From an uncultured Methanosarcinales archaeon (GTDB lineage Archaea > Nanobdellota > Nanobdellia > Woesearchaeales > GW2011-AR4): 64,000 bases of DNA. Within the stretch, counting starts at the first letter, position 1, and the number at the start of each line of letters is the position of its first letter. The notes beneath the pieces were generated by a model that was not told where the DNA came from, made no database searches, and saw nothing but the letters and a program-made list of their open reading frames with translations. The stretch lies in assembly GCA_964650285.1 (NCBI GenBank), contig CAZYSP010000003.1:6364-70363 (forward strand). Reading direction: 5' to 3'. A program made the position numbers and the translations under genes. Below, in pieces: positions 13,936 through 59,181 of this stretch.

Positions 13936-15396
13936 GTGAATTTGGAAGCTGAAAAAAAACTTATAGATTCTTATGAGTTAAACGTAAATGATATAGTAAT
14001 TGATGTTTCTATTTATTCTGATGAAAATGAGCCTGTTCCTGTTTATAGCATCTCTATAACAAATATAAGCGAAACTACGAAGATAATTCTTGAGAAAATC
14101 AGGGAGGAGTTTGTATCCCAGGAAATGAAAACATTTGAACAAGGGTCGCTTGAATCATCAACTATACAAAAACAATTTAAAAAAGGTATATTGGTATTAT
14201 TGCGCAAGTACTTTCCAACTGCTAATAAAAAAACCATGGATATGCTTATAAATTATATTTTGCAACAGAACATAGGGCTCGGAAATATTGAAGTGCTGCT
14301 TAAAGATAAAAATCTCGAGGAGGTTGCAATCAATAATGCAAATGAGCCAATCTGGATCTACCATAGGAAATATGGCTGGCTTAAAACAAATATAATGATC
14401 CCTAATGAAAGCAGAATAAGATATTACTCAACAGTTATAGGGAGAGATGTAGGCAAAGAAATAACTACATTAAATCCTTTGATGGATGCTCATCTAAAGA
14501 CAGGCGACAGGGTAAATTCAACTTTAAGTCCGATATCCTCAAAAGGGAATACACTAACAATAAGAAAGTTTGCGGTAAAACCCTGGACAATAACAGACTT
14601 CATCAAGGAAAAAACCATCTCGTATGAAGCTGCTGCTCTTTTATGGATGGCTGTTCAAAATGAGCTTTCTGTAATCATAACAGGAGGAACAGCTTCTGGT
14701 AAAACTTCTATGCTAAATGTTGTTGCAAATTTCTTCCCTCCAAATCAAAGAATACTGTCTCTGGAGGATACTAGGGAGCTAATGCTTCCTAAGATTCTTC
14801 ATTGGGTTCCTCTTGAAACAAGATTACCAAATCCAGAAGGCAAAGGAGGAATAACAATGCTTGACTTAATAGTAAACTCATTGAGAATGAGACCTGACAG
14901 GATTTTGGTAGGGGAAATTAGAAGAAAAAGGGAAGCTGAAGTTATTTTTGAGGCAATGCATACGGGTCATAGTGTTTATGGAACTTTGCACGCAAATAAT
15001 GTAAGAGAAACCATAAACAGACTAACACAACCACCAATAGGATTGTCAAAGCAGATTCTTTCAGCTTTATCATTAATAGTGGTTCAGCACATAAATAGGA
15101 GAAATGGCAGAAGGAGGACATTGCAGATAGGGGAGGTAATGTACAATGGTGATGCAAAGCCAATTATGCAACTCAATATTATGAAGGATACGCTTGAAAA
15201 GGTTAACGATCCGACTACAATTTTTGAAACACTAAATCTTTATACAGGACTTTCAAAAGGAGACATTGAGAAGGATATTAACGAAAAAGTCGATATTTTA
15301 AAATGGATGGTAAAGAATAATATAACCGACATCAACAAGATAGGAATGATTATGTCTAAACATTACAGGAAAAAACCTTTTAAACATATGGTCTAA
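13936..15396 (+). CDS. archaeal type IV pilus/archaellum assembly ATPase (FlaI/PilB/TadA family)
   Basis: Walker A TGGTASGKTS. Collinear with secretion NTPases. GTG start preceded by AGAGGTG. Confidence 0.8.
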   Translation: MNLEAEKKLIDSYELNVNDIVIDVSIYSDENEPVPVYSISITNISETTKIILEKIREEFVSQEMKTFEQGSLESSTIQKQFKKGILVLLRKYFPTANKKTMDMLINYILQQNIGLGNIEVLLKDKNLEEVAINNANEPIWIYHRKYGWLKTNIMIPNESRIRYYSTVIGRDVGKEITTLNPLMDAHLKTGDRVNSTLSPISSKGNTLTIRKFAVKPWTITDFIKEKTISYEAAALLWMAVQNELSVIITGGTASGKTSMLNVVANFFPPNQRILSLEDTRELMLPKILHWVPLETRLPNPEGKGGITMLDLIVNSLRMRPDRILVGEIRRKREAEVIFEAMHTGHSVYGTLHANNVRETINRLTQPPIGLSKQILSALSLIVVQHINRRNGRRRTLQIGEVMYNGDAKPIMQLNIMKDTLEKVNDPTTIFETLNLYTGLSKGDIEKDINEKVDILKWMVKNNITDINKIGMIMSKHYRKKPFKHMV

Positions 15397-52247: not shown

Positions 52248-52286
52248 AAATATTTAAATAACCACATCAAAAACTAATTCTTATTC

Positions 52287-52439
52287 GGGGCTATAGTGTA
52301 GCTTGGTCTATCATTCCAGATCGGGGTAACCCAATTCGTAGAGTATCTGTTAAAGAGTCTGTGAAACGGAAATCTGGCGACCCGTGTTCAAATTGCTGCA
52401 TGGTCGACACCTTCGGCATTGAAATTCACGGTAGCCCCA
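52287..52439 (+). tRNA. tRNA, isotype undetermined, with two introns (~45 nt in the anticodon region, 33 nt at T-loop 59/60)
   Basis: GGGGCTA-TA-GTGT-AGCTTGGTCTA-TCAT-T-CCAGA...TCTGG-CGAC-CCGTG-TTCAAA|33 nt|T-CACGG-TAGCCCC-A. The D-arm resembles the Asp/Glu type. Confidence 0.45.
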
Positions 52440-52495
52440 CCCTTTCAAAAACATTTATATATAAGTATATTAATAGCTGAATTTGGTGGAATTCC

Positions 52496-53926
52496 ATGAT
52501 TTTAGTTAAAAAACTCGTACTTTTCGCACTTATATTCTCAATCTGTACTTCTATAGCATATGCTGCTTCATTTGATGTAAGTGTAGTTCCTATTGATGAC
52601 AGGATTGTAATTGATGAATTTGCAACTTTCCAGCTGAATATTAAGAATAACCTGCAGAAAAAAGATGAATACAGGATATATACACTTGATTTTCCAACCT
52701 GGGATGTAAGAACAGAACCTCTAGTAAACCCAATAACTCTTGAGTTAAATCCAGGAAAACAAGGCAGCGTTGAGCTTGTAGTTGATCCCTTAAAAATAAA
52801 GGACATTGGAACATACCAGGTAAATGTAAATGTAAGGTCTAAACTTACAAATAAACTTATTTCTGCCCCCCTAAAAGTCACAATATTATCAATAGGGCCT
52901 TTAATTGGTGGCTATGTTCCTACAGTTACTACCGGCATTGACGCACCAGAAAAAATAGATCCTAGAGAAGAGGTTACAATAAAAATTTCTCTTAATAACC
53001 AGAATATTATAGACTATCCAGACTTAGTTATAAAGTTAGAGAGTAATCTGATTAAAGAAACTATAAATACTCAACTGGGACCGAAAGAAGAAAAGACATT
53101 ACAGATAACAGCAAACCTTGACCCATTAACACCTCCTCAGGAAGATAGGCTGGTAGTATCAATCTTTAAAGGAAATAGAAGTATAATAAACCCAATTGTA
53201 AGGAATATAGAAATTATAGAATATACACAGCAAGAAATTGTAAAAGAAGAAAAAAAATTTTTGCTGACAAGAAAGCATTATGATTTTGTATCTAACAATA
53301 AAGATTATGAAGGTGTATCCAAGATTGAGACTACTTTGCTGGATTCAATATCCTCTTCTACAAATCCAAAAACCAGAGTTGTGAAAGAGAATGATAAAAG
53401 ATACTTTGTTTCTGATGTAAAACTAGAAAACAACAGGATGCAGATTACTGTCACCAAGAACTTGATACCCTCATTCATTGTAATTGTATTATTAATCATA
53501 TTAGTAATATCATACTACATGCTTAGGTCGCCATTGCTCATGGTAAAAGAAGCCAGTAATATAGTTAAGAAGGAAGGCGGAATCTCTGAAATAACTGTTA
53601 TTTTGCACATAAAAAACAGGTCACAGAGTAAGATAGAGCAAATAGAGATTACTGATTTTATTCCCGCTCTGGTCTCGGTAGGCGGAGATGTTCCAATAGG
53701 CTCCTTGCAGCCCAATAAAGTTCTTAAACATGAGAGGAAAGGCACCACTATAGTAAAATGGACAATAGACACTCTTGACGCTTCAGAGGAACGTGTTTTA
53801 TCTTACAGGATAAAATCAAAATTGGCTATACTTGGAAGTTTTAATTTACCTGCTGCAAAAGCAGTCTTTAAATCAAATAATAAAGGCTTTACCTCAACTT
53901 CTAACAGGTTAGGGATTGGTAATTGA
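52496..53926 (+). CDS. hypothetical surface protein with signal peptide and C-proximal transmembrane anchor
   Basis: N-terminal signal LVLFALIFSICTSIAYAAS. Beta-rich extracellular region. Transmembrane helix SFIVIVLLIILVISYYM near residue 330. Confidence 0.5.
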   Translation: MILVKKLVLFALIFSICTSIAYAASFDVSVVPIDDRIVIDEFATFQLNIKNNLQKKDEYRIYTLDFPTWDVRTEPLVNPITLELNPGKQGSVELVVDPLKIKDIGTYQVNVNVRSKLTNKLISAPLKVTILSIGPLIGGYVPTVTTGIDAPEKIDPREEVTIKISLNNQNIIDYPDLVIKLESNLIKETINTQLGPKEEKTLQITANLDPLTPPQEDRLVVSIFKGNRSIINPIVRNIEIIEYTQQEIVKEEKKFLLTRKHYDFVSNNKDYEGVSKIETTLLDSISSSTNPKTRVVKENDKRYFVSDVKLENNRMQITVTKNLIPSFIVIVLLIILVISYYMLRSPLLMVKEASNIVKKEGGISEITVILHIKNRSQSKIEQIEITDFIPALVSVGGDVPIGSLQPNKVLKHERKGTTIVKWTIDTLDASEERVLSYRIKSKLAILGSFNLPAAKAVFKSNNKGFTSTSNRLGIGN

Positions 53927-56969: not shown

Positions 56970-58739
56970 TTATTCCAACACAGCCTTAATCCTTCTTATT
57001 CCAGCAGCAGAGCTTTCTTCTTTTATTATTTTAAATTTGCCAAGTTCATTGGTATTTTTAACATGAGGTCCGCCGCATATTTCTGTTGAAAAATTTTCTA
57101 TTGAATAAACAGAGACTCTTTCAGCATATTTATGCTCAAAGACTCCCTGTGCATTCTTCTTTTTTGCCTCTTCTAAAGTCATTTCTTCCTTTTTAACTTG
57201 CAACCCGGCTTTTATTTTTTCATTAACAATGTCTTTTATCTTTTTTATTTCTCCTTCGCTTAGTTTTCTGTCAAAATTAAAGTCAAACCTTAATCTTTCC
57301 GGAGTTATGTTAGAGCCTTTCTGGATTATTTTATCATCTTTTAAAACTCTTCTTAATGCTTCATTTAACAAATGGGTAACTGTATGTAATTTTTTTGTTT
57401 GTTCGGAGCTATCAGCTAAGCCTCCTTTAAAGCGCTTTTCTGCTCCTGCCCTTGAAAGCTTTTGATGTTTTTTGAATTCTTTCTCAAAACCTTTTTTATC
57501 TACTTTGATTCCTTTTTCTTCTGCTAATTCTTCTACCATTTCTAATGGAAAGCCGTATGATTGGAATAAAAGGAAAGCTTCTTTTCCTGATATTTTTTTG
57601 TCATTTGCCATCCTTTCAAACTTACGAAGGCCTTTCTCAAGTGTTGCTCTGAATTTTTCATCTTCTTTTTTTAGTTCATTTAAGATGAAATTTTTGTTTT
57701 TTTCTAACTCATTATAATCTCCTTTATGAAGGTTGATAACTATTTTTGCCAATTCTGTTACAAATTCTTTTTCTATACCTAATAACTTTCCATGCCTTAT
57801 GGAGCGTCTTATGAATCTCCTTAGAATGTAACCTTGGTCTAGATTTGATGGTACTATCCCTAGATCGTCTCCTAAAATGAATATTGCTGCCCTTATATGG
57901 TCTGTTATTATTCTTATTGAGAGTTCTTGTTTCTCGTTAGGATTATCTATTTTTGCTAGTTCTTTTATTTTTTCTACTATTGGAGTAAAGGTTTCTATTT
58001 CATATACTGTTTTTTTGCCTTGAAGTGTTGCTATAGTTCTTTCAACACCCATTCCAGTATCAACGGTTTTTTGTTTAAAGGGAATGTATTTTCCCTCTTT
58101 TGTTTTATTGTATTGTATAAAGACATCATTCCAAATCTCAAAATATTTTCCGCAACTACATCCTGGCTTACAATCTTTACTGCATTTTTCTTTTCCAGTA
58201 TCATAAAACATTTCAGTATCTGGACCGCATGGACCTGTTGAACCAGCAGGACCCCACCAGTTATCTTTTTTTGGCAGATAAAAAATTCTTTTTTTTGGAA
58301 TTCCTAAGCTTTTCCATATTTTTGCTGATTCCTCATCTCTTGGAGCATCTTTGTCTCCTTTAAAAACAGTAATATACAGCTTGTTTTTATCCAAACCAAG
58401 CCATTTTTTTGATGTTAAGAACTCAAAGCTCCATTCAATTGCTTCTTTTTTCCAGTAATCTCCCAAAGACCAGTTACCAAGCATCTCAAAAAATGTTAAG
58501 TGGGAAGGATCTCCTATCTCATCTATATCCCCTGTTCTGATGCATTTTTGAACATCAACTAAACGCTTGCCAGCAGGATGACTTTCTCCCATTATGTATG
58601 GAACAAGAGGGTGCATACCCGCAGTTGTAAATAAAACAGTTGGATCGTGTTCAGGAATTAAAGAAGCAGAGTTAATCAATTTATGCCTCTTTTCAATAAA
58701 AAATTCAAAATATTTTTTTTTAAAATCTTTGGCTTTCAT
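56970..58739 (-). CDS. alaS: alanyl-tRNA synthetase lacking the C-terminal C-Ala domain
   Basis: TTAGM...QKCIR...HLTFFEMLGNWSLGDY catalytic core, HLLNEALRRVL and CGGPHV editing motifs. Ends about 35 aa after CGGPHV. Start is trimmed to MKAKDF so it does not overlap tRNA-Glu. Confidence 0.85.
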   Translation of the reverse strand: MKAKDFKKKYFEFFIEKRHKLINSASLIPEHDPTVLFTTAGMHPLVPYIMGESHPAGKRLVDVQKCIRTGDIDEIGDPSHLTFFEMLGNWSLGDYWKKEAIEWSFEFLTSKKWLGLDKNKLYITVFKGDKDAPRDEESAKIWKSLGIPKKRIFYLPKKDNWWGPAGSTGPCGPDTEMFYDTGKEKCSKDCKPGCSCGKYFEIWNDVFIQYNKTKEGKYIPFKQKTVDTGMGVERTIATLQGKKTVYEIETFTPIVEKIKELAKIDNPNEKQELSIRIITDHIRAAIFILGDDLGIVPSNLDQGYILRRFIRRSIRHGKLLGIEKEFVTELAKIVINLHKGDYNELEKNKNFILNELKKEDEKFRATLEKGLRKFERMANDKKISGKEAFLLFQSYGFPLEMVEELAEEKGIKVDKKGFEKEFKKHQKLSRAGAEKRFKGGLADSSEQTKKLHTVTHLLNEALRRVLKDDKIIQKGSNITPERLRFDFNFDRKLSEGEIKKIKDIVNEKIKAGLQVKKEEMTLEEAKKKNAQGVFEHKYAERVSVYSIENFSTEICGGPHVKNTNELGKFKIIKEESSAAGIRRIKAVLE

Positions 58740-58793
58740 GATTTGAATAAGGATGGGTTTATTTAAAAAGTTTGCTTTAAAAATAAATAGAAA

Positions 58794-58868
58794 TGCTCCC
58801 AACGGGATTCGAACCCGTGTCTCGGCCTCGAGAAGGCCGAATGATTGGCCGGGCTACACCATGGGAGC
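58794..58868 (-). tRNA. tRNA-Glu(CUC)
   Basis: GCTCCCA-TG-GTGT-AGCCCGGCCAA-TCAT-T-CGGCC-TTCTCGA-GGCCG-AGAC-ACGGG-TTCGAAT-CCCGT-TGGGAGC-A. 75 nt, no intron. Confidence 0.8.
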
Positions 58869-58883
58869 ATAGAAAATAAAAAA

Positions 58884-59047
58884 TGGGCCCGGAGGGATTT
58901 GAACCCCTGACCTAAAGCCAAGACATTTTATCTTTCCGGCTGGCTTAGCTCTCTAATGGCTAAAACATTTGTACCATTAGTGGTCATATAAGACCGGCGC
59001 TTTTGTCTAAGCTTGTAGCTTATCTAACCAGGCTGAGCTACGGGCCC
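58884..59047 (-). tRNA. tRNA-like locus (164 nt), canonical ends and T-arm, interior interrupted, probably by two introns; isotype unresolved
   Basis: GGGCCCG-TA-GCTC-AGCCTGGTTAGA... then ...AGGGG-TTCAAAT-CCCTC-CGGGCCC-A. TTAGA occurs twice, 73 nt apart, suggesting a D-arm intron. An AAGCC/GGCTT helix flanks a 22-nt segment in the anticodon region. Confidence 0.45.
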
Positions 59048-59097: not shown

Positions 59098-59181
59098 TGC
59101 GGCAGCCGAGATTCGAACTCGGGTCCCAGCCTTTTTACAATGTTTGGCAAGGCCGGATCTTAACCACTGGACTACTGCCGC
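59098..59181 (-). tRNA. tRNA-Gly(GCC) with 12-nt canonical intron
   Basis: GCGGCAG-TA-GTCC-AGTGGTTA-AGAT-C-CGGCC-TTGCCA[12 nt]A-GGCTG-GGAC-CCGAG-TTCGAAT-CTCGG-CTGCCGC-A. Confidence 0.7.

What the first reader, a model, noticed from the sequence alone, without database searches (positions are those of the whole stretch)
52287..52439. Two-intron tRNA whose anticodon cannot be read from the DNA
The ends (GGGGCTA...TAGCCCC-A), an Asp/Glu-type D-arm and the T-arm are clear. The T-loop carries a 33-nt insertion at 59/60 (TTCAAA|TGCTGC...GAAAT|T-CACGG). A second ~45-nt insertion sits between anticodon-stem halves CCAGA and TCTGG, and begins with a GGG-GUAA-CCC GNRA hairpin. Whichever splice point is chosen, the mature loop reads TCGG(G/A)(G/A)A, implying C33 and a GGG or GGA anticodon. 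That suggests a shifted stem or a non-canonical splice site.
Basis: partly seen in the sequence, partly recalled or inferred. Interest (0 to 1): 0.6.

Follow-up and report, generated by a model that had tools for sequence, protein, structure and literature searches.

The report
Two-intron proline tRNA carrying C33
This is a working proline tRNA gene of a tiny marine (DPANN) archaeon, interrupted by two short introns; once they are removed the anticodon reads plainly as GGG, and the only real oddity is a C, shared with most sampled related genomes, where almost every tRNA has a U next to the anticodon.

Summary
Window 52287-52439(+) is a tRNA-Pro(GGG) gene with two archaeal bulge-helix-bulge (BHB) introns: 45 nt at the canonical 37/38 site and 33 nt at 59/60 in the T-loop. 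Removing both gives a 75-nt cloverleaf that ARAGORN calls tRNA-Pro(GGG).

Its inference that the anticodon is unreadable, or needs a shifted stem or odd splice site, is not supported:
- Relatives carry the same UCGGGGA loop either uninterrupted (L009) or split at the same site (7 further lineages).
- A close relative (L021) lacks the T-loop intron and shows the predicted junction.
- The anticodon stem covaries at all five pairs.
- No alternative splice gives U33 with BHB support.

In positional orthologs upstream of a conserved 476-aa gene, C33 is seen in 8 lineages and U33 in 2. Position 33 covaries with the intron base it pairs with in the BHB helix (C-G seven times, U-A once).

The host is a marine Woesearchaeota/Nanoarchaeota-type archaeon, a group already known for disrupted tRNA genes. 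The gene is an ordinary member of a known kind. The residual point of interest is an old, heritable C33 in an elongator tRNA.

The parts
52253..52260 (+). TATA-box-like promoter element TTTAAATA, at -34..-27 from the mature 5' end
   Evidence: The same octamer lies at -33..-26 upstream of the other cryptic tRNA in the window (5' end at 59047, minus strand). Calling it a promoter is an inference from archaeal promoter architecture.
52287..52326 (+). Exon 1: tRNA positions 1-37 (acceptor 5' half, D-arm, anticodon stem 5' half CCAGA, loop UCGGGG)
   Evidence: Conserved in orthologs.
52322..52322 (+). C33, where nearly all tRNAs have U
   Evidence: C in 8 lineages and U in 2 positional orthologs. 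Pairs with intron base G52368 in the BHB central helix.
52323..52325 (+). Anticodon GGG (positions 34-36), followed by G37
   Evidence: ARAGORN on the spliced product. The frame is fixed by alignment with the UGG isoacceptors and with the uninterrupted loops of L009 and L033.
52327..52371 (+). Intron 1: 45 nt at the canonical 37/38 position
   Evidence: Its ends resemble the introns at the same site in L021, L023, L008 and L010 (shared UUCGU.. start and ..GA(A/G)ACG(G/A)A(A/C) end).
52323..52332 (+). GGG-GUAA-CCC hairpin spanning the 5' splice site. It arises from a 7-nt insertion (AACCCAA) found only in the window and L021
   Evidence: Predicted in the minimum-free-energy folds. The sequence is identical in L021, so there is no covariation evidence. 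It enlarges the 5' bulge from 3 to 10 nt relative to L010.
52335..52341 (+). Intron-1 inner helix, 5' strand UUCGUAG. Pairs with 52359-52365
   Evidence: Read directly from the sequence. L021 has CGA/UCG where the window has UAG/CUG, which looks compensatory (hand-derived from the sequences).
52359..52365 (+). Intron-1 inner helix, 3' strand CUGUGAA
   Evidence: As for 52335-52341. It abuts the central-helix strand ACGG.
52366..52372 (+). BHB 3' half of intron 1: ACGG pairs with U32 C33 G34 (G35 faces A), then the 3-nt bulge AA|A carrying the 3' splice site. A52372 is position 38
   Evidence: Pair 33:(j-4) is C-G seven times and U-A once; 32:(j-3) is U.G seven times and U-A once; 34:(j-5) is G-C six times and G.U twice; 35:(j-6) is G-C twice and G/A six times.
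52372..52392 (+). Exon 2: positions 38-59 (A38, anticodon stem 3' half UCUGG, variable loop CGAC, T-stem 5' half CCGUG, T-loop UUCAAA)
   Evidence: L021 has this stretch joined directly to exon 3.
52393..52425 (+). Intron 2: 33 nt at non-canonical position 59/60 in the T-loop
   Evidence: BHB with a perfect 4-bp central helix UUCA(52387-52390)/UGAA(52420-52423) stacked on the 5-bp T-stem, and bulges AA|U and AU|U. Absent in L021 and L036. Present at the same site in L023, L008, L035, L034, L013, L018 and L020, with A57-U versus G57-C covariation.
52426..52439 (+). Exon 3: positions 60-73 (U60, T-stem 3' half CACGG, acceptor 3' half UAGCCCC, discriminator A73). CCA is not encoded
   Evidence: The trailer is CCCTTTC.
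52496..53926 (+). Context only: 476-aa protein with no Pfam match. It is the conserved downstream neighbour used as a synteny anchor for orthologs

Best explanation
The region is a functional gene for elongator tRNA-Pro(GGG) in a marine DPANN archaeon of the Woesearchaeota/Nanoarchaeota type.

**Proposed pathway**
1. It is transcribed from a TATA-like promoter about 30 nt upstream, as a precursor of about 153 nt.
2. The archaeal splicing endonuclease (EndA) removes two introns at bulge-helix-bulge motifs. One is 45 nt at the canonical 37/38 site. There the central helix is U32.G, C33-G, G34-C plus a G35/A mismatch, the 3' bulge is AA|A, and the 5' bulge is enlarged (a relaxed motif). The other is 33 nt at 59/60 in the T-loop, with a perfect UUCA/UGAA helix stacked on the T-stem.
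3. The exons are ligated, presumably by RtcB.
4. The ends are trimmed and CCA is added.

The 75-nt product has the loop U32-C33-G34G35G36-G37-A38 and reads CCU and CCC. C33 is a genuine, inherited feature of this tRNA in most of the clade. It is not an artefact of choosing the wrong splice site.

**Shown here:** the exon and intron boundaries, the cloverleaf, the BHB pairing and its covariation, and the conservation of C33.

**Inferred:** transcription, the enzymes involved, aminoacylation by ProRS, m1G37, and decoding.
For: **The product**
- The spliced product is a 75-nt tRNA-Pro(GGG) according to ARAGORN.

**Orthologs**
- L009 is an intronless ortholog with the same loop, CCAGC-UCGGGGA-GCUGG. 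ARAGORN calls it Pro(GGG) and it scores 49.1 bits on the Rfam tRNA model.
- L010 has the same split loop and scores 43.2 bits.
- L021 is 73/75 identical in the exons, and the two differences form the compensatory 31-39 pair. It lacks intron 2 and reads CCGTG-TTCAAAT-CACGG, which proves that junction.

**Structure and covariation**
- Cloverleaf covariation: 95.2% of cells paired, with all 5 anticodon-stem pairs changed on both sides.
- BHB core: 91.7% paired, against 12-67% when slid. Pair 33:(j-4) is C-G seven times and U-A once.
- The T-loop BHB central helix is perfect in all 8 introns at 59/60, with A57-U versus G57-C covariation.
- Only 37/38 among the one-intron solutions has BHB support, and no U33-yielding two-intron solution does.

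**Sample taken without constraining the loop**
- Positional orthologs upstream of the conserved 476-aa gene give C33 in L035 and L036 and U33 in L033 and L034. All four splice to Pro(GGG).

**Decoding need**
- CCU plus CCC account for 247 of 540 Pro codons in window ORFs, against 69 for CCG. A G34 tRNA is therefore needed.

**Promoter**
- A TTTAAATA box lies at -34..-27, and another tRNA in the window has the same box at the same spacing.

**Host and literature**
- AlaRS and the neighbour protein have their best named relatives in Nanoarchaeota and Ca. Woesearchaeota MAGs.
- DPANN lineages are known for disrupted tRNA genes and broad-specificity EndA (PMC5829648).
- ARMAN-2 pre-tRNA-Pro(GGG) has introns at 53/54 and 59/60 (PMC3239211).
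- The BHB geometry, with anticodon bases 34-35 in the central helix, follows PMC4090602.
Against: - There is no expression or RNA data.
- The Rfam tRNA model does not detect the unspliced window gene, L021 or L023, even at permissive thresholds where tried. I could not score the spliced sequence with a covariance model.
- The 37/38 motif is not a strict BHB. G35 faces A in 6 of 8 genes. In the window and L021 the 5' bulge is 10 nt, and a competing GGG-GUAA-CCC hairpin is the lowest-energy local fold.
- No EndA, RtcB or ProRS gene lies in the 64-kb window.
- The only C33 ortholog with an uninterrupted loop (L009) has G73 rather than A73.
- C33 breaks a near-universal rule for elongator tRNAs (PMC5041475).
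- The rest of this genome was not available, so a second Pro(GGG) gene with U33 cannot be excluded.
Confidence: 0.85

Rival explanations
1. The gene, introns and splice sites are as described, but C33 is converted to U after transcription by C-to-U deamination, so the mature tRNA has a normal U-turn.
For: U33 is almost invariant in elongator tRNAs (PMC5041475). From my own knowledge, not tested here, site-specific C-to-U tRNA editing exists in archaea (C8 in Methanopyrus, by CDAT8) and in eukaryotes (C32). U33 is the state in two positional orthologs, L033 and L034.
Against: No cytidine-deaminase-type domain turned up among the roughly 55 window ORFs scanned, although the window is only a small part of the genome. 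No such editing at position 33 is known to me. C33 persists in the Sulfolobales tRNA-Cys gene and in eukaryotic initiator genes without any report of editing (PMC7668247, PMC5041475).
Confidence: 0.07
2. The loop is read in a shifted frame. Either U32 acts as the U-turn base with anticodon CGG, or the stem is only 4 bp (CCAG/CUGG) with the loop AUCGGGU. Either way the tRNA would be Pro(CGG).
For: ARAGORN also accepts a 73-nt product with a 4-bp-stem-compatible splice, calling it Pro(CGG). No CGG-type Pro tRNA turned up in the genome scan that used this D-arm signature.
Against: - The 31-39 pair covaries as A-U, C-G and G-C and is paired in all sequences, so the loop begins at U32.
- The alternative splice has poorer BHB support.
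- In the uninterrupted L009 loop a shifted frame would need a 9-nt loop.
- Columns 35-37 are GGG in both the GGG-type and UGG-type tRNAs, which fixes the frame.
- CCG is only 13% of Pro codons, while CCU plus CCC are 46% and would otherwise lack a G34 reader.
Confidence: 0.04
3. It is a decaying tRNA pseudogene, or a remnant of a mobile-element integration site, and is no longer functional.
For: Standard detectors miss it. It has C33 and an imperfect 37/38 BHB. In related genomes the tRNA has been lost from this site (L027, L031, L032, L037), and L035 shows a partial duplication of the 5' end.
Against: - All stems are intact.
- Exons are far more conserved than introns: 73/75 identical against about 80% versus L021, and the only exon change is compensatory.
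- Covariation in the stems and in the BHB helices indicates selection on both folding and splicing.
- The promoter box is at the proper distance.
- The gene is identical across four independent contigs (L001, L002, L004, L005), with one near-identical variant (L026).
Confidence: 0.03
4. A third cryptic intron, or non-BHB splicing inside the anticodon arm, yields a loop with U33 and a different anticodon, for example Thr(CGU) from UUCGUAG or His(GUG) from CUGUGAA.
For: Sevenmers compatible with U33 exist inside intron 1. Three-intron tRNAs exist in archaea (PMC4090602), and there appears to be one in this same window.
Against: None of the 112 two-intron solutions giving U33 and R37 has even relaxed BHB support at both sites. 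The candidate sevenmers are not conserved in the introns of L023, L008, L010, L035 and L036. The acceptor, discriminator and G35-G37 match the Pro tRNAs of the clade.
Confidence: 0.01

Closest known systems
Pre-tRNA-Pro(GGG) of Candidatus Micrarchaeum ARMAN-2 (DPANN), with introns at 53/54 and 59/60 (PMC3239211)
   Same: Same isoacceptor and same superphylum. It also has multiple BHB introns, including one at 59/60 in the T-loop. One ortholog found here (L033) also has a 53/54 intron.
   Different: The window gene combines 59/60 with the canonical 37/38 intron. Its 37/38 motif is relaxed, whereas the ARMAN-2 pair is described as strict hBHBh'. C33 is not mentioned in the passages I read. The EndA type of this lineage was not determined here.
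Multi-intron tRNAs of Thermoproteales, e.g. Pyrobaculum islandicum tRNA-Pro(UGG) with introns at 25/26, 37/38 and 56/57 (PMC4090602)
   Same: A canonical intron plus non-canonical introns in one gene. Splice sites lie in BHB or relaxed HBh'/hBH motifs and are processed by a broad-specificity endonuclease.
   Different: Different phylum (TACK, not DPANN), different intron positions, and a normal U33.
tRNA-Cys(GCA) of Sulfolobales, with 'an unusual C33' (PMC7668247)
   Same: An archaeal elongator tRNA whose gene carries C at the otherwise conserved position 33, across a clade.
   Different: Different amino acid, anticodon and phylum. It is accompanied by G27.U43. Its mature RNA had not been isolated either, so its functional status is equally untested.
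Eukaryotic initiator tRNA-Met with C33, and Candida tRNA-Ser(CAG) with G33 (PMC5041475)
   Same: Natural functional tRNAs that lack U33.
   Different: One is an initiator that binds the P-site. The other is tied to codon reassignment and ambiguous decoding. Neither is an ordinary sense-codon elongator in an archaeon.

Membership tests
tRNA (Rfam RF00005, cloverleaf) | 7-bp acceptor stem, D-arm with G18G19, 5-bp anticodon stem with a 7-nt loop, and 5-bp T-stem with a GUUCRAAU-type loop | tested here: met
   After both insertions are removed, ARAGORN draws a complete cloverleaf. Covariation on 15 clade members gives 95.2% paired cells, with 11 of 21 pairs changed on both sides.
tRNA (Rfam RF00005, cloverleaf) | Covariance-model score above the gathering threshold (29 bits) | tested here: inconclusive
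   The unspliced window gene, L021 and L023 are not reported. Orthologs L009 (intronless) and L010 (one intron) score 49.1 and 43.2 bits. The tool cannot score a spliced sequence.
tRNA (Rfam RF00005, cloverleaf) | U33 (the U-turn base) and a purine at position 37 | tested here: not met
   Position 37 is G, but position 33 is C. The same holds in 8 lineages, and two orthologs have U33. This is a deviation from a near-invariant base, not from the fold.
Archaeal tRNA-Pro identity | G35 and G36, A73 and a G1-C72/G-C-rich acceptor (identity set recalled from the literature, not tested here), plus G37 as the substrate for m1G37 | tested here: met
   These sequence features are present. They are invariant across the GGG-type and UGG-type tRNAs of the clade, except that L009 has G73. 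Aminoacylation itself is not testable with these tools.
Canonical archaeal BHB intron (37/38, hBHBh') | Two 3-nt bulges separated by a 4-bp helix that includes positions 32-35, flanked by the anticodon stem and an intron helix | tested here: inconclusive
   The 3' bulge (AA|A), the 5-bp outer helix and 3 of 4 central pairs are present and covary. G35 faces A, and in the window the 5' bulge is 10 nt rather than 3 nt. That fits a relaxed motif but not a strict one.
Non-canonical archaeal intron at 59/60 (HBh'-type) | A 4-bp central helix formed by T-loop bases 54-57 with the 3' end of the intron, a 3-nt bulge at each splice site, and an outer helix formed by the T-stem | tested here: met
   UUCA/UGAA is perfect, the bulges are AA|U and AU|U, and the T-stem has 5 bp. 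Eight introns at this site share the motif, with R57-Y covariation. The inner helix is weak (UGC/GCA with one extra base).
Archaeal tRNA splicing system | A broad-specificity EndA (with an L1, L2 or L3 loop) and RtcB ligase in the same genome | not testable with these tools
   Neither gene is in the 64-kb window, and the rest of the genome was not available. The literature reports L3-loop EndA in diverse DPANN lineages; Woesearchaeota and Pacearchaeota genomes were among those it surveyed for tRNA genes (PMC5829648).

The most novel reading that the evidence does not exclude
In a whole clade of Woesearchaeota-type DPANN archaea, the 'universal' U33 of an elongator tRNA, tRNA-Pro(GGG), has been stably replaced by C33.
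- The neighbour protein of this clade has diverged to about 29% identity.
- The C stays Watson-Crick paired with an intron base in the BHB central helix: C33-G in seven genes, U33-A in one. This suggests that selection for splicing helped carry an otherwise frozen anticodon-loop base along the path U-A, then U.G, then C-G.
- It also suggests that a G-rich anticodon loop (GGG plus G37, with a U32-A38 pair possible) can decode without a canonical U-turn.
Probability: 0.4. Interest if true: 0.55.

Novelty: new member of a known kind. Interest (0 to 1): 0.36.

Why it matters
**Annotation.** Standard tRNA finders miss this gene and at least one more in the same window. DPANN genomes therefore look as if they lack essential tRNAs when they do not. 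The conserved tRNA-to-476-aa-gene synteny gives a simple handle for recovering such genes.

**Biology.** The orthologous series offers a natural experiment.
- Across the series, introns occur at four sites: the D-loop, 37/38, 53/54 and 59/60.
- C33 and U33 alternate among positional orthologs, and position 33 covaries with an intron base.
- If the mature tRNA really keeps C33, that would add a second archaeal elongator exception to U33. It could be tested directly by comparing C33 and U33 anticodon stem-loops in ribosome binding and frame maintenance on CCC-N sites.

None of this changes the basic verdict that the gene is an ordinary disrupted archaeal tRNA.

Tried and rejected
1. **Thaumarchaeal origin.** This was my first guess from the 33% GC and marine samples. 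The AlaRS and neighbour-protein relatives are labelled Nanoarchaeota or Woesearchaeota instead.
2. **A loose BHB scan of the whole 153 nt.** It gave dozens of chance hits and was uninformative on its own. Only the T-loop site stood out.
3. **AlaRS-anchored synteny.** This cost four look-ups and found no Pro tRNA, because the linkage is not conserved.
4. **Rfam on L021 and L023.** I hoped for a covariance-model score on near-identical exons with one intron. Nothing was reported.
5. **Plain minimum-free-energy folding.** Folds of the precursor and of the mature RNA do not reproduce the cloverleaf or the BHB, and the z-scores are modest at -1.8 and -2.6. They were not used as evidence.
6. **A C/D-box guide inside the introns.** By eye I found no C-box (RUGAUGA) or D-box (CUGA) motif. 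The weak snoRNA-like Rfam hits next to the gene have E-values of 2.7-9.5 and are taken as chance.
7. **The Ser(GGA) reading, the 4-bp-stem Pro(CGG) reading, and Thr/His readings through a third intron.** All were rejected.
8. **Literature searches for C33 in tRNA-Pro or DPANN.** Searches found no report, but the library holds open-access papers only.
9. **The metagenome scan.** Its pattern forced TCGGGG, so it cannot be used to estimate how common C33 is. Only the genome scan and the synteny sample are free of that bias.

Full report
**1. The observation**

The elements are:
- acceptor halves GGGGCUA and UAGCCCC, followed by A73
- a D-arm GUGU/AGCUUGGUCUA/UCAU
- anticodon-stem halves CCAGA and UCUGG, separated by 52 nt
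- T-stem halves CCGUG and CACGG, separated by 40 nt

ARAGORN finds one other tRNA in the window and Rfam two, but neither finds this one, even when Rfam is run permissively on the region alone.

**2. The T-loop insertion**

I used the standard archaeal bulge-helix-bulge (BHB) geometry: a central 4-bp helix 5' of each 3-nt bulge, with cleavage after the second bulge base. For the canonical site this places positions 32-35 in the central helix, as described in PMC4090602.

With that geometry the site 59/60 has:
- a perfect central helix, U54 U55 C56 A57 with UGAA
- the 5-bp T-stem stacked on it
- bulges AA|U and AU|U

A close relative from a metagenome (L021) is 73/75 identical in the exons. It lacks the insertion and reads CCGTG-TTCAAAT-CACGG. 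That is direct evidence for the junction.

Seven other Pro tRNA genes of the clade carry unrelated insertions of 15-93 nt at the same site: L023, L008, L035, L034, L013, L018 and L020. All have a perfect central helix, and A57-U is replaced by G57-C in five of them. Intron 2 is therefore 52393-52425.

**3. The anticodon-arm insertion**

I enumerated every single-intron splice that leaves a 5-bp stem and a 7-nt loop.
- It gives five possible loops, and all have C at position 33.
- Only the canonical 37/38 cut has BHB support, with 3 of 4 central pairs stacked on the 5-bp anticodon stem.
- None of the 112 solutions with two introns inside the arm that would give U33 and R37 has even relaxed BHB support.

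Removing 52327-52371 and 52393-52425 yields a 75-nt RNA that ARAGORN folds into a complete cloverleaf and calls tRNA-Pro(GGG).

**4. Comparative evidence that the C33 loop is real**

*Genome scan.* I scanned one genome per species with a pattern covering only the acceptor and D-arm, so the loop was unconstrained. It returned 14 loci.
- Eleven are UGG isoacceptors with the loop UUUGGGA.
- Three are GGG-type, and all three have UCGGGG.
- L009 has the loop uninterrupted (CCAGC-UCGGGGA-GCUGG). ARAGORN calls it Pro(GGG), and it scores 49.1 bits on the Rfam tRNA model.
- L010 is split at 37/38 and scores 43.2 bits. L008 has both introns.

*Metagenome scan.* This scan was biased, because its pattern required TCGGGG. 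It added L021 and L023.

*Cloverleaf test.* On an ungapped alignment of 15 mature sequences, the cloverleaf is 95.2% paired, against 33-46% when the 3' partners are slid. All five anticodon-stem pairs change on both sides. In particular, 31-39 is A-U, C-G or G-C. The stem is not shifted and the loop has seven bases.

*Frame.* Positions 35-37 are GGG in both isoacceptor types, which fixes the anticodon frame.

**5. A sample taken without constraining the loop**

The 476-aa protein just downstream (52496-53926, no Pfam match) also follows the GGG-type tRNA in L008/L024 and L010, and lies nearby in L023. Protein identity is 29-43%. It has 285 homologs, and the named ones are from Nanoarchaeota or Ca. 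Woesearchaeota MAGs.

I fetched seven homologs spanning 46-75% identity and read the upstream gap in each.
- **L035 and L036:** UCGGGG split at 37/38, so C33.
- **L034:** UUGGGG split at 37/38, so U33.
- **L033:** an uninterrupted loop CUGGGGG (U33), with insertions in the D-loop (39 nt) and at 53/54 (20 nt).
- **L031, L032 and L037:** no tRNA at this position.

L027, which had been fetched earlier through AlaRS synteny, also lacks the tRNA upstream of its copy of the anchor gene. It keeps only ...GCCCCA plus the spacer.

All four tRNA genes splice to tRNA-Pro(GGG). C33 is thus seen in 8 lineages and U33 in 2.

On a rough neighbour-joining tree of the anchor protein, the C33 genes form a paraphyletic grade and the two U33 genes form one nested clade. 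This suggests C33 is old in the group, with one reversion or gene replacement. That is an inference from a single-protein tree.

**6. The 37/38 motif**

I built a fixed-register alignment of the BHB core from eight genes. The nine proposed pairs are 91.7% paired, against 12-67% when slid. Within the central helix:

| Pair | Observed |
|---|---|
| 32:(j-3) | U.G seven times, U-A once |
| 33:(j-4) | C-G seven times, U-A once (L034) |
| 34:(j-5) | G-C six times, G.U twice |
| 35:(j-6) | G-C twice, G facing A six times |

- Position 33 therefore covaries with its intron partner.
- The register of this alignment follows my chosen splice site, so it leans towards the structure. The slid controls argue the signal is specific.
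- In L010 the 5' bulge is GG|U, followed by a 7-bp inner helix.
- In the window and L021 a 7-nt insertion (AACCCAA) enlarges that bulge to 10 nt.
- The inner helix UUCGUAG/CUGUGAA (52335-52341 with 52359-52365) is retained, and L021 has an apparently compensatory CGA/UCG (sequences).
- The motif is thus relaxed, not strict.

**7. Host and mechanism**

*Host.*
- The window has 33% GC.
- It encodes archaeal markers: Nre, deoxyhypusine synthase, S7/S12, an A24 peptidase, and a short AlaRS.
- Its AlaRS is 75-81% identical to proteins labelled Nanoarchaeota or Ca. Woesearchaeota.
- Identical contigs come from TARA and JGI marine metagenomes.
- DPANN lineages are already known for disrupted tRNA genes and EndA variants with broadened specificity, and incomplete tRNA sets there are attributed to undetected disrupted genes (PMC5829648).
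- ARMAN-2 pre-tRNA-Pro(GGG) has introns at 53/54 and 59/60 (PMC3239211).

*Expression signals.* A TTTAAATA box lies at -34..-27, and the same octamer lies at -33..-26 before another cryptic tRNA in the window. CCA is not encoded.

*Decoding need.* CCU plus CCC are 247 of 540 Pro codons in window ORFs, against 69 for CCG. Archaea read NNY codons with G34, which is established knowledge. A GGG tRNA is therefore required.

*Inferred pathway.* Transcription is followed by EndA cleavage at the two motifs, RtcB ligation, end processing and CCA addition, charging by ProRS, and decoding of CCU and CCC. No EndA, RtcB or ProRS gene is in the window, so the enzymatic steps are inferred.

**8. Comparison with what is known, and novelty**

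- Multi-intron archaeal tRNAs with canonical plus 59/60 introns are a known kind. This gene is a new member.
- The unusual residue is C33. Reviews describe U33 as almost invariant in elongators. The listed exceptions are many eukaryotic initiators (C33) and Candida tRNA-Ser(CAG) (G33) (PMC5041475).
- Sulfolobales tRNA-Cys(GCA) is noted to have an unusual C33, and its RNA could not be isolated (PMC7668247).
- Five searches found no mention of C33 in tRNA-Pro or in DPANN. The library holds open-access papers only.
- I cannot tell whether the mature RNA keeps C33 or is edited.

**9. Verdict**

Its interpretation that the anticodon is unreadable or the splice non-canonical is not supported. The gene is tRNA-Pro(GGG) with introns at 37/38 and 59/60 (confidence 0.85). 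Interest is moderate to low (0.36). It rests on the clade-wide C33 and its covariation with the intron, and on the practical point that such genes escape annotation.

Noticed in passing
window 58884-59047 (minus strand): A second cryptic tRNA, missed by ARAGORN and Rfam. It is 164 nt, starts GGGCCCGUAGCUCAGCCUGG and ends GGUUCAAAUCCCUCCGGGCCCA. It has three apparent insertions: in the D-loop, at 37/38, and in the variable region around 44/45. After their removal ARAGORN calls tRNA-Ile(UAU) for 283 of 640 boundary combinations. The exact splice points are unresolved. tRNA-Ile(UAU) is reported for the ARMAN lineages.
   Followed up: partly
window 59098-59181 (minus strand): An 84-nt tRNA that Rfam finds (47.7 bits) but ARAGORN misses. 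By eye the loop is UUGCCA, which would be Gly(GCC) with normal U33, interrupted by a short canonical intron (14 inserted bases in the Rfam alignment). Together with tRNA-Glu(CUC) at 58793-58869 and the Ile candidate it forms a three-tRNA cluster.
   Followed up: no
window 52440-52495, and the equivalent spacers in L027, L031-L036: The spacer between the tRNA and the 476-aa gene holds a strongly conserved AAAAACATTTATATATAAGTATA block and a GGTGG(A/T)ATTT motif just before the ATG. Both persist even where the protein is only 57-73% identical and where the tRNA itself is gone. They look like the promoter (TATA) and ribosome-binding site of the neighbour gene.
   Followed up: partly
window 52496-53926 (+): A 476-aa protein with no Pfam match and a hydrophobic, signal-like N-terminus. 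It has 285 homologs, the listed ones nearly all 472-484 aa. All named ones are from Nanoarchaeota or Ca. Woesearchaeota MAGs. It is a lineage-specific conserved protein of unknown function.
   Followed up: no
L035, about 1215-1330: A 34-nt direct repeat (CGCTCAATCCACTATGGGGCTGTAGTGTAGCTTG) comprises the leader plus the first 19 nt of the tRNA-Pro gene. The two copies flank a 41-nt insert immediately upstream of the intact gene. This may be a partial duplication, an integration scar or an assembly artefact.
   Followed up: no
L027 about 14385-14420 (minus strand); also L031, L032, L037 upstream of 1501: In four relatives the tRNA-Pro gene is absent upstream of the anchor gene. L027 retains only ...GCCCCA plus the conserved spacer, so the breakpoint lies at the 3' end of the tRNA. 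That is the classic place for integrase-mediated rearrangements.
   Followed up: partly
L033 about 1270-1405; L034 about 1225-1430: Orthologous tRNA-Pro(GGG) genes show very different intron sets. L033 has a 39-nt D-loop insertion and a 20-nt insertion at 53/54, with none in the anticodon loop. L034 has a 36-nt intron at 37/38 and a 93-nt intron at 59/60. Across the orthologous series, introns occur at four different sites.
   Followed up: partly
L013, L014, L017, L018, L020 (downstream of tRNA-Pro(UGG)): By eye, the UGG isoacceptor is followed by an ORF starting MAKKK..., which looks like a ribosomal L37Ae/L43e-type protein. This holds both in MAGs labelled Woesearchaeota or Nanoarchaeota and in MAGs labelled 'uncultured Methanosarcinales'. 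The latter labels are therefore probably wrong, and those MAGs are likely DPANN.
   Followed up: no
window 56970-58802 (minus strand): The alanyl-tRNA synthetase is only about 589-610 aa. It has the catalytic and SAD domains but no Pfam-detected C-terminal domain. Close relatives share this length.
   Followed up: no
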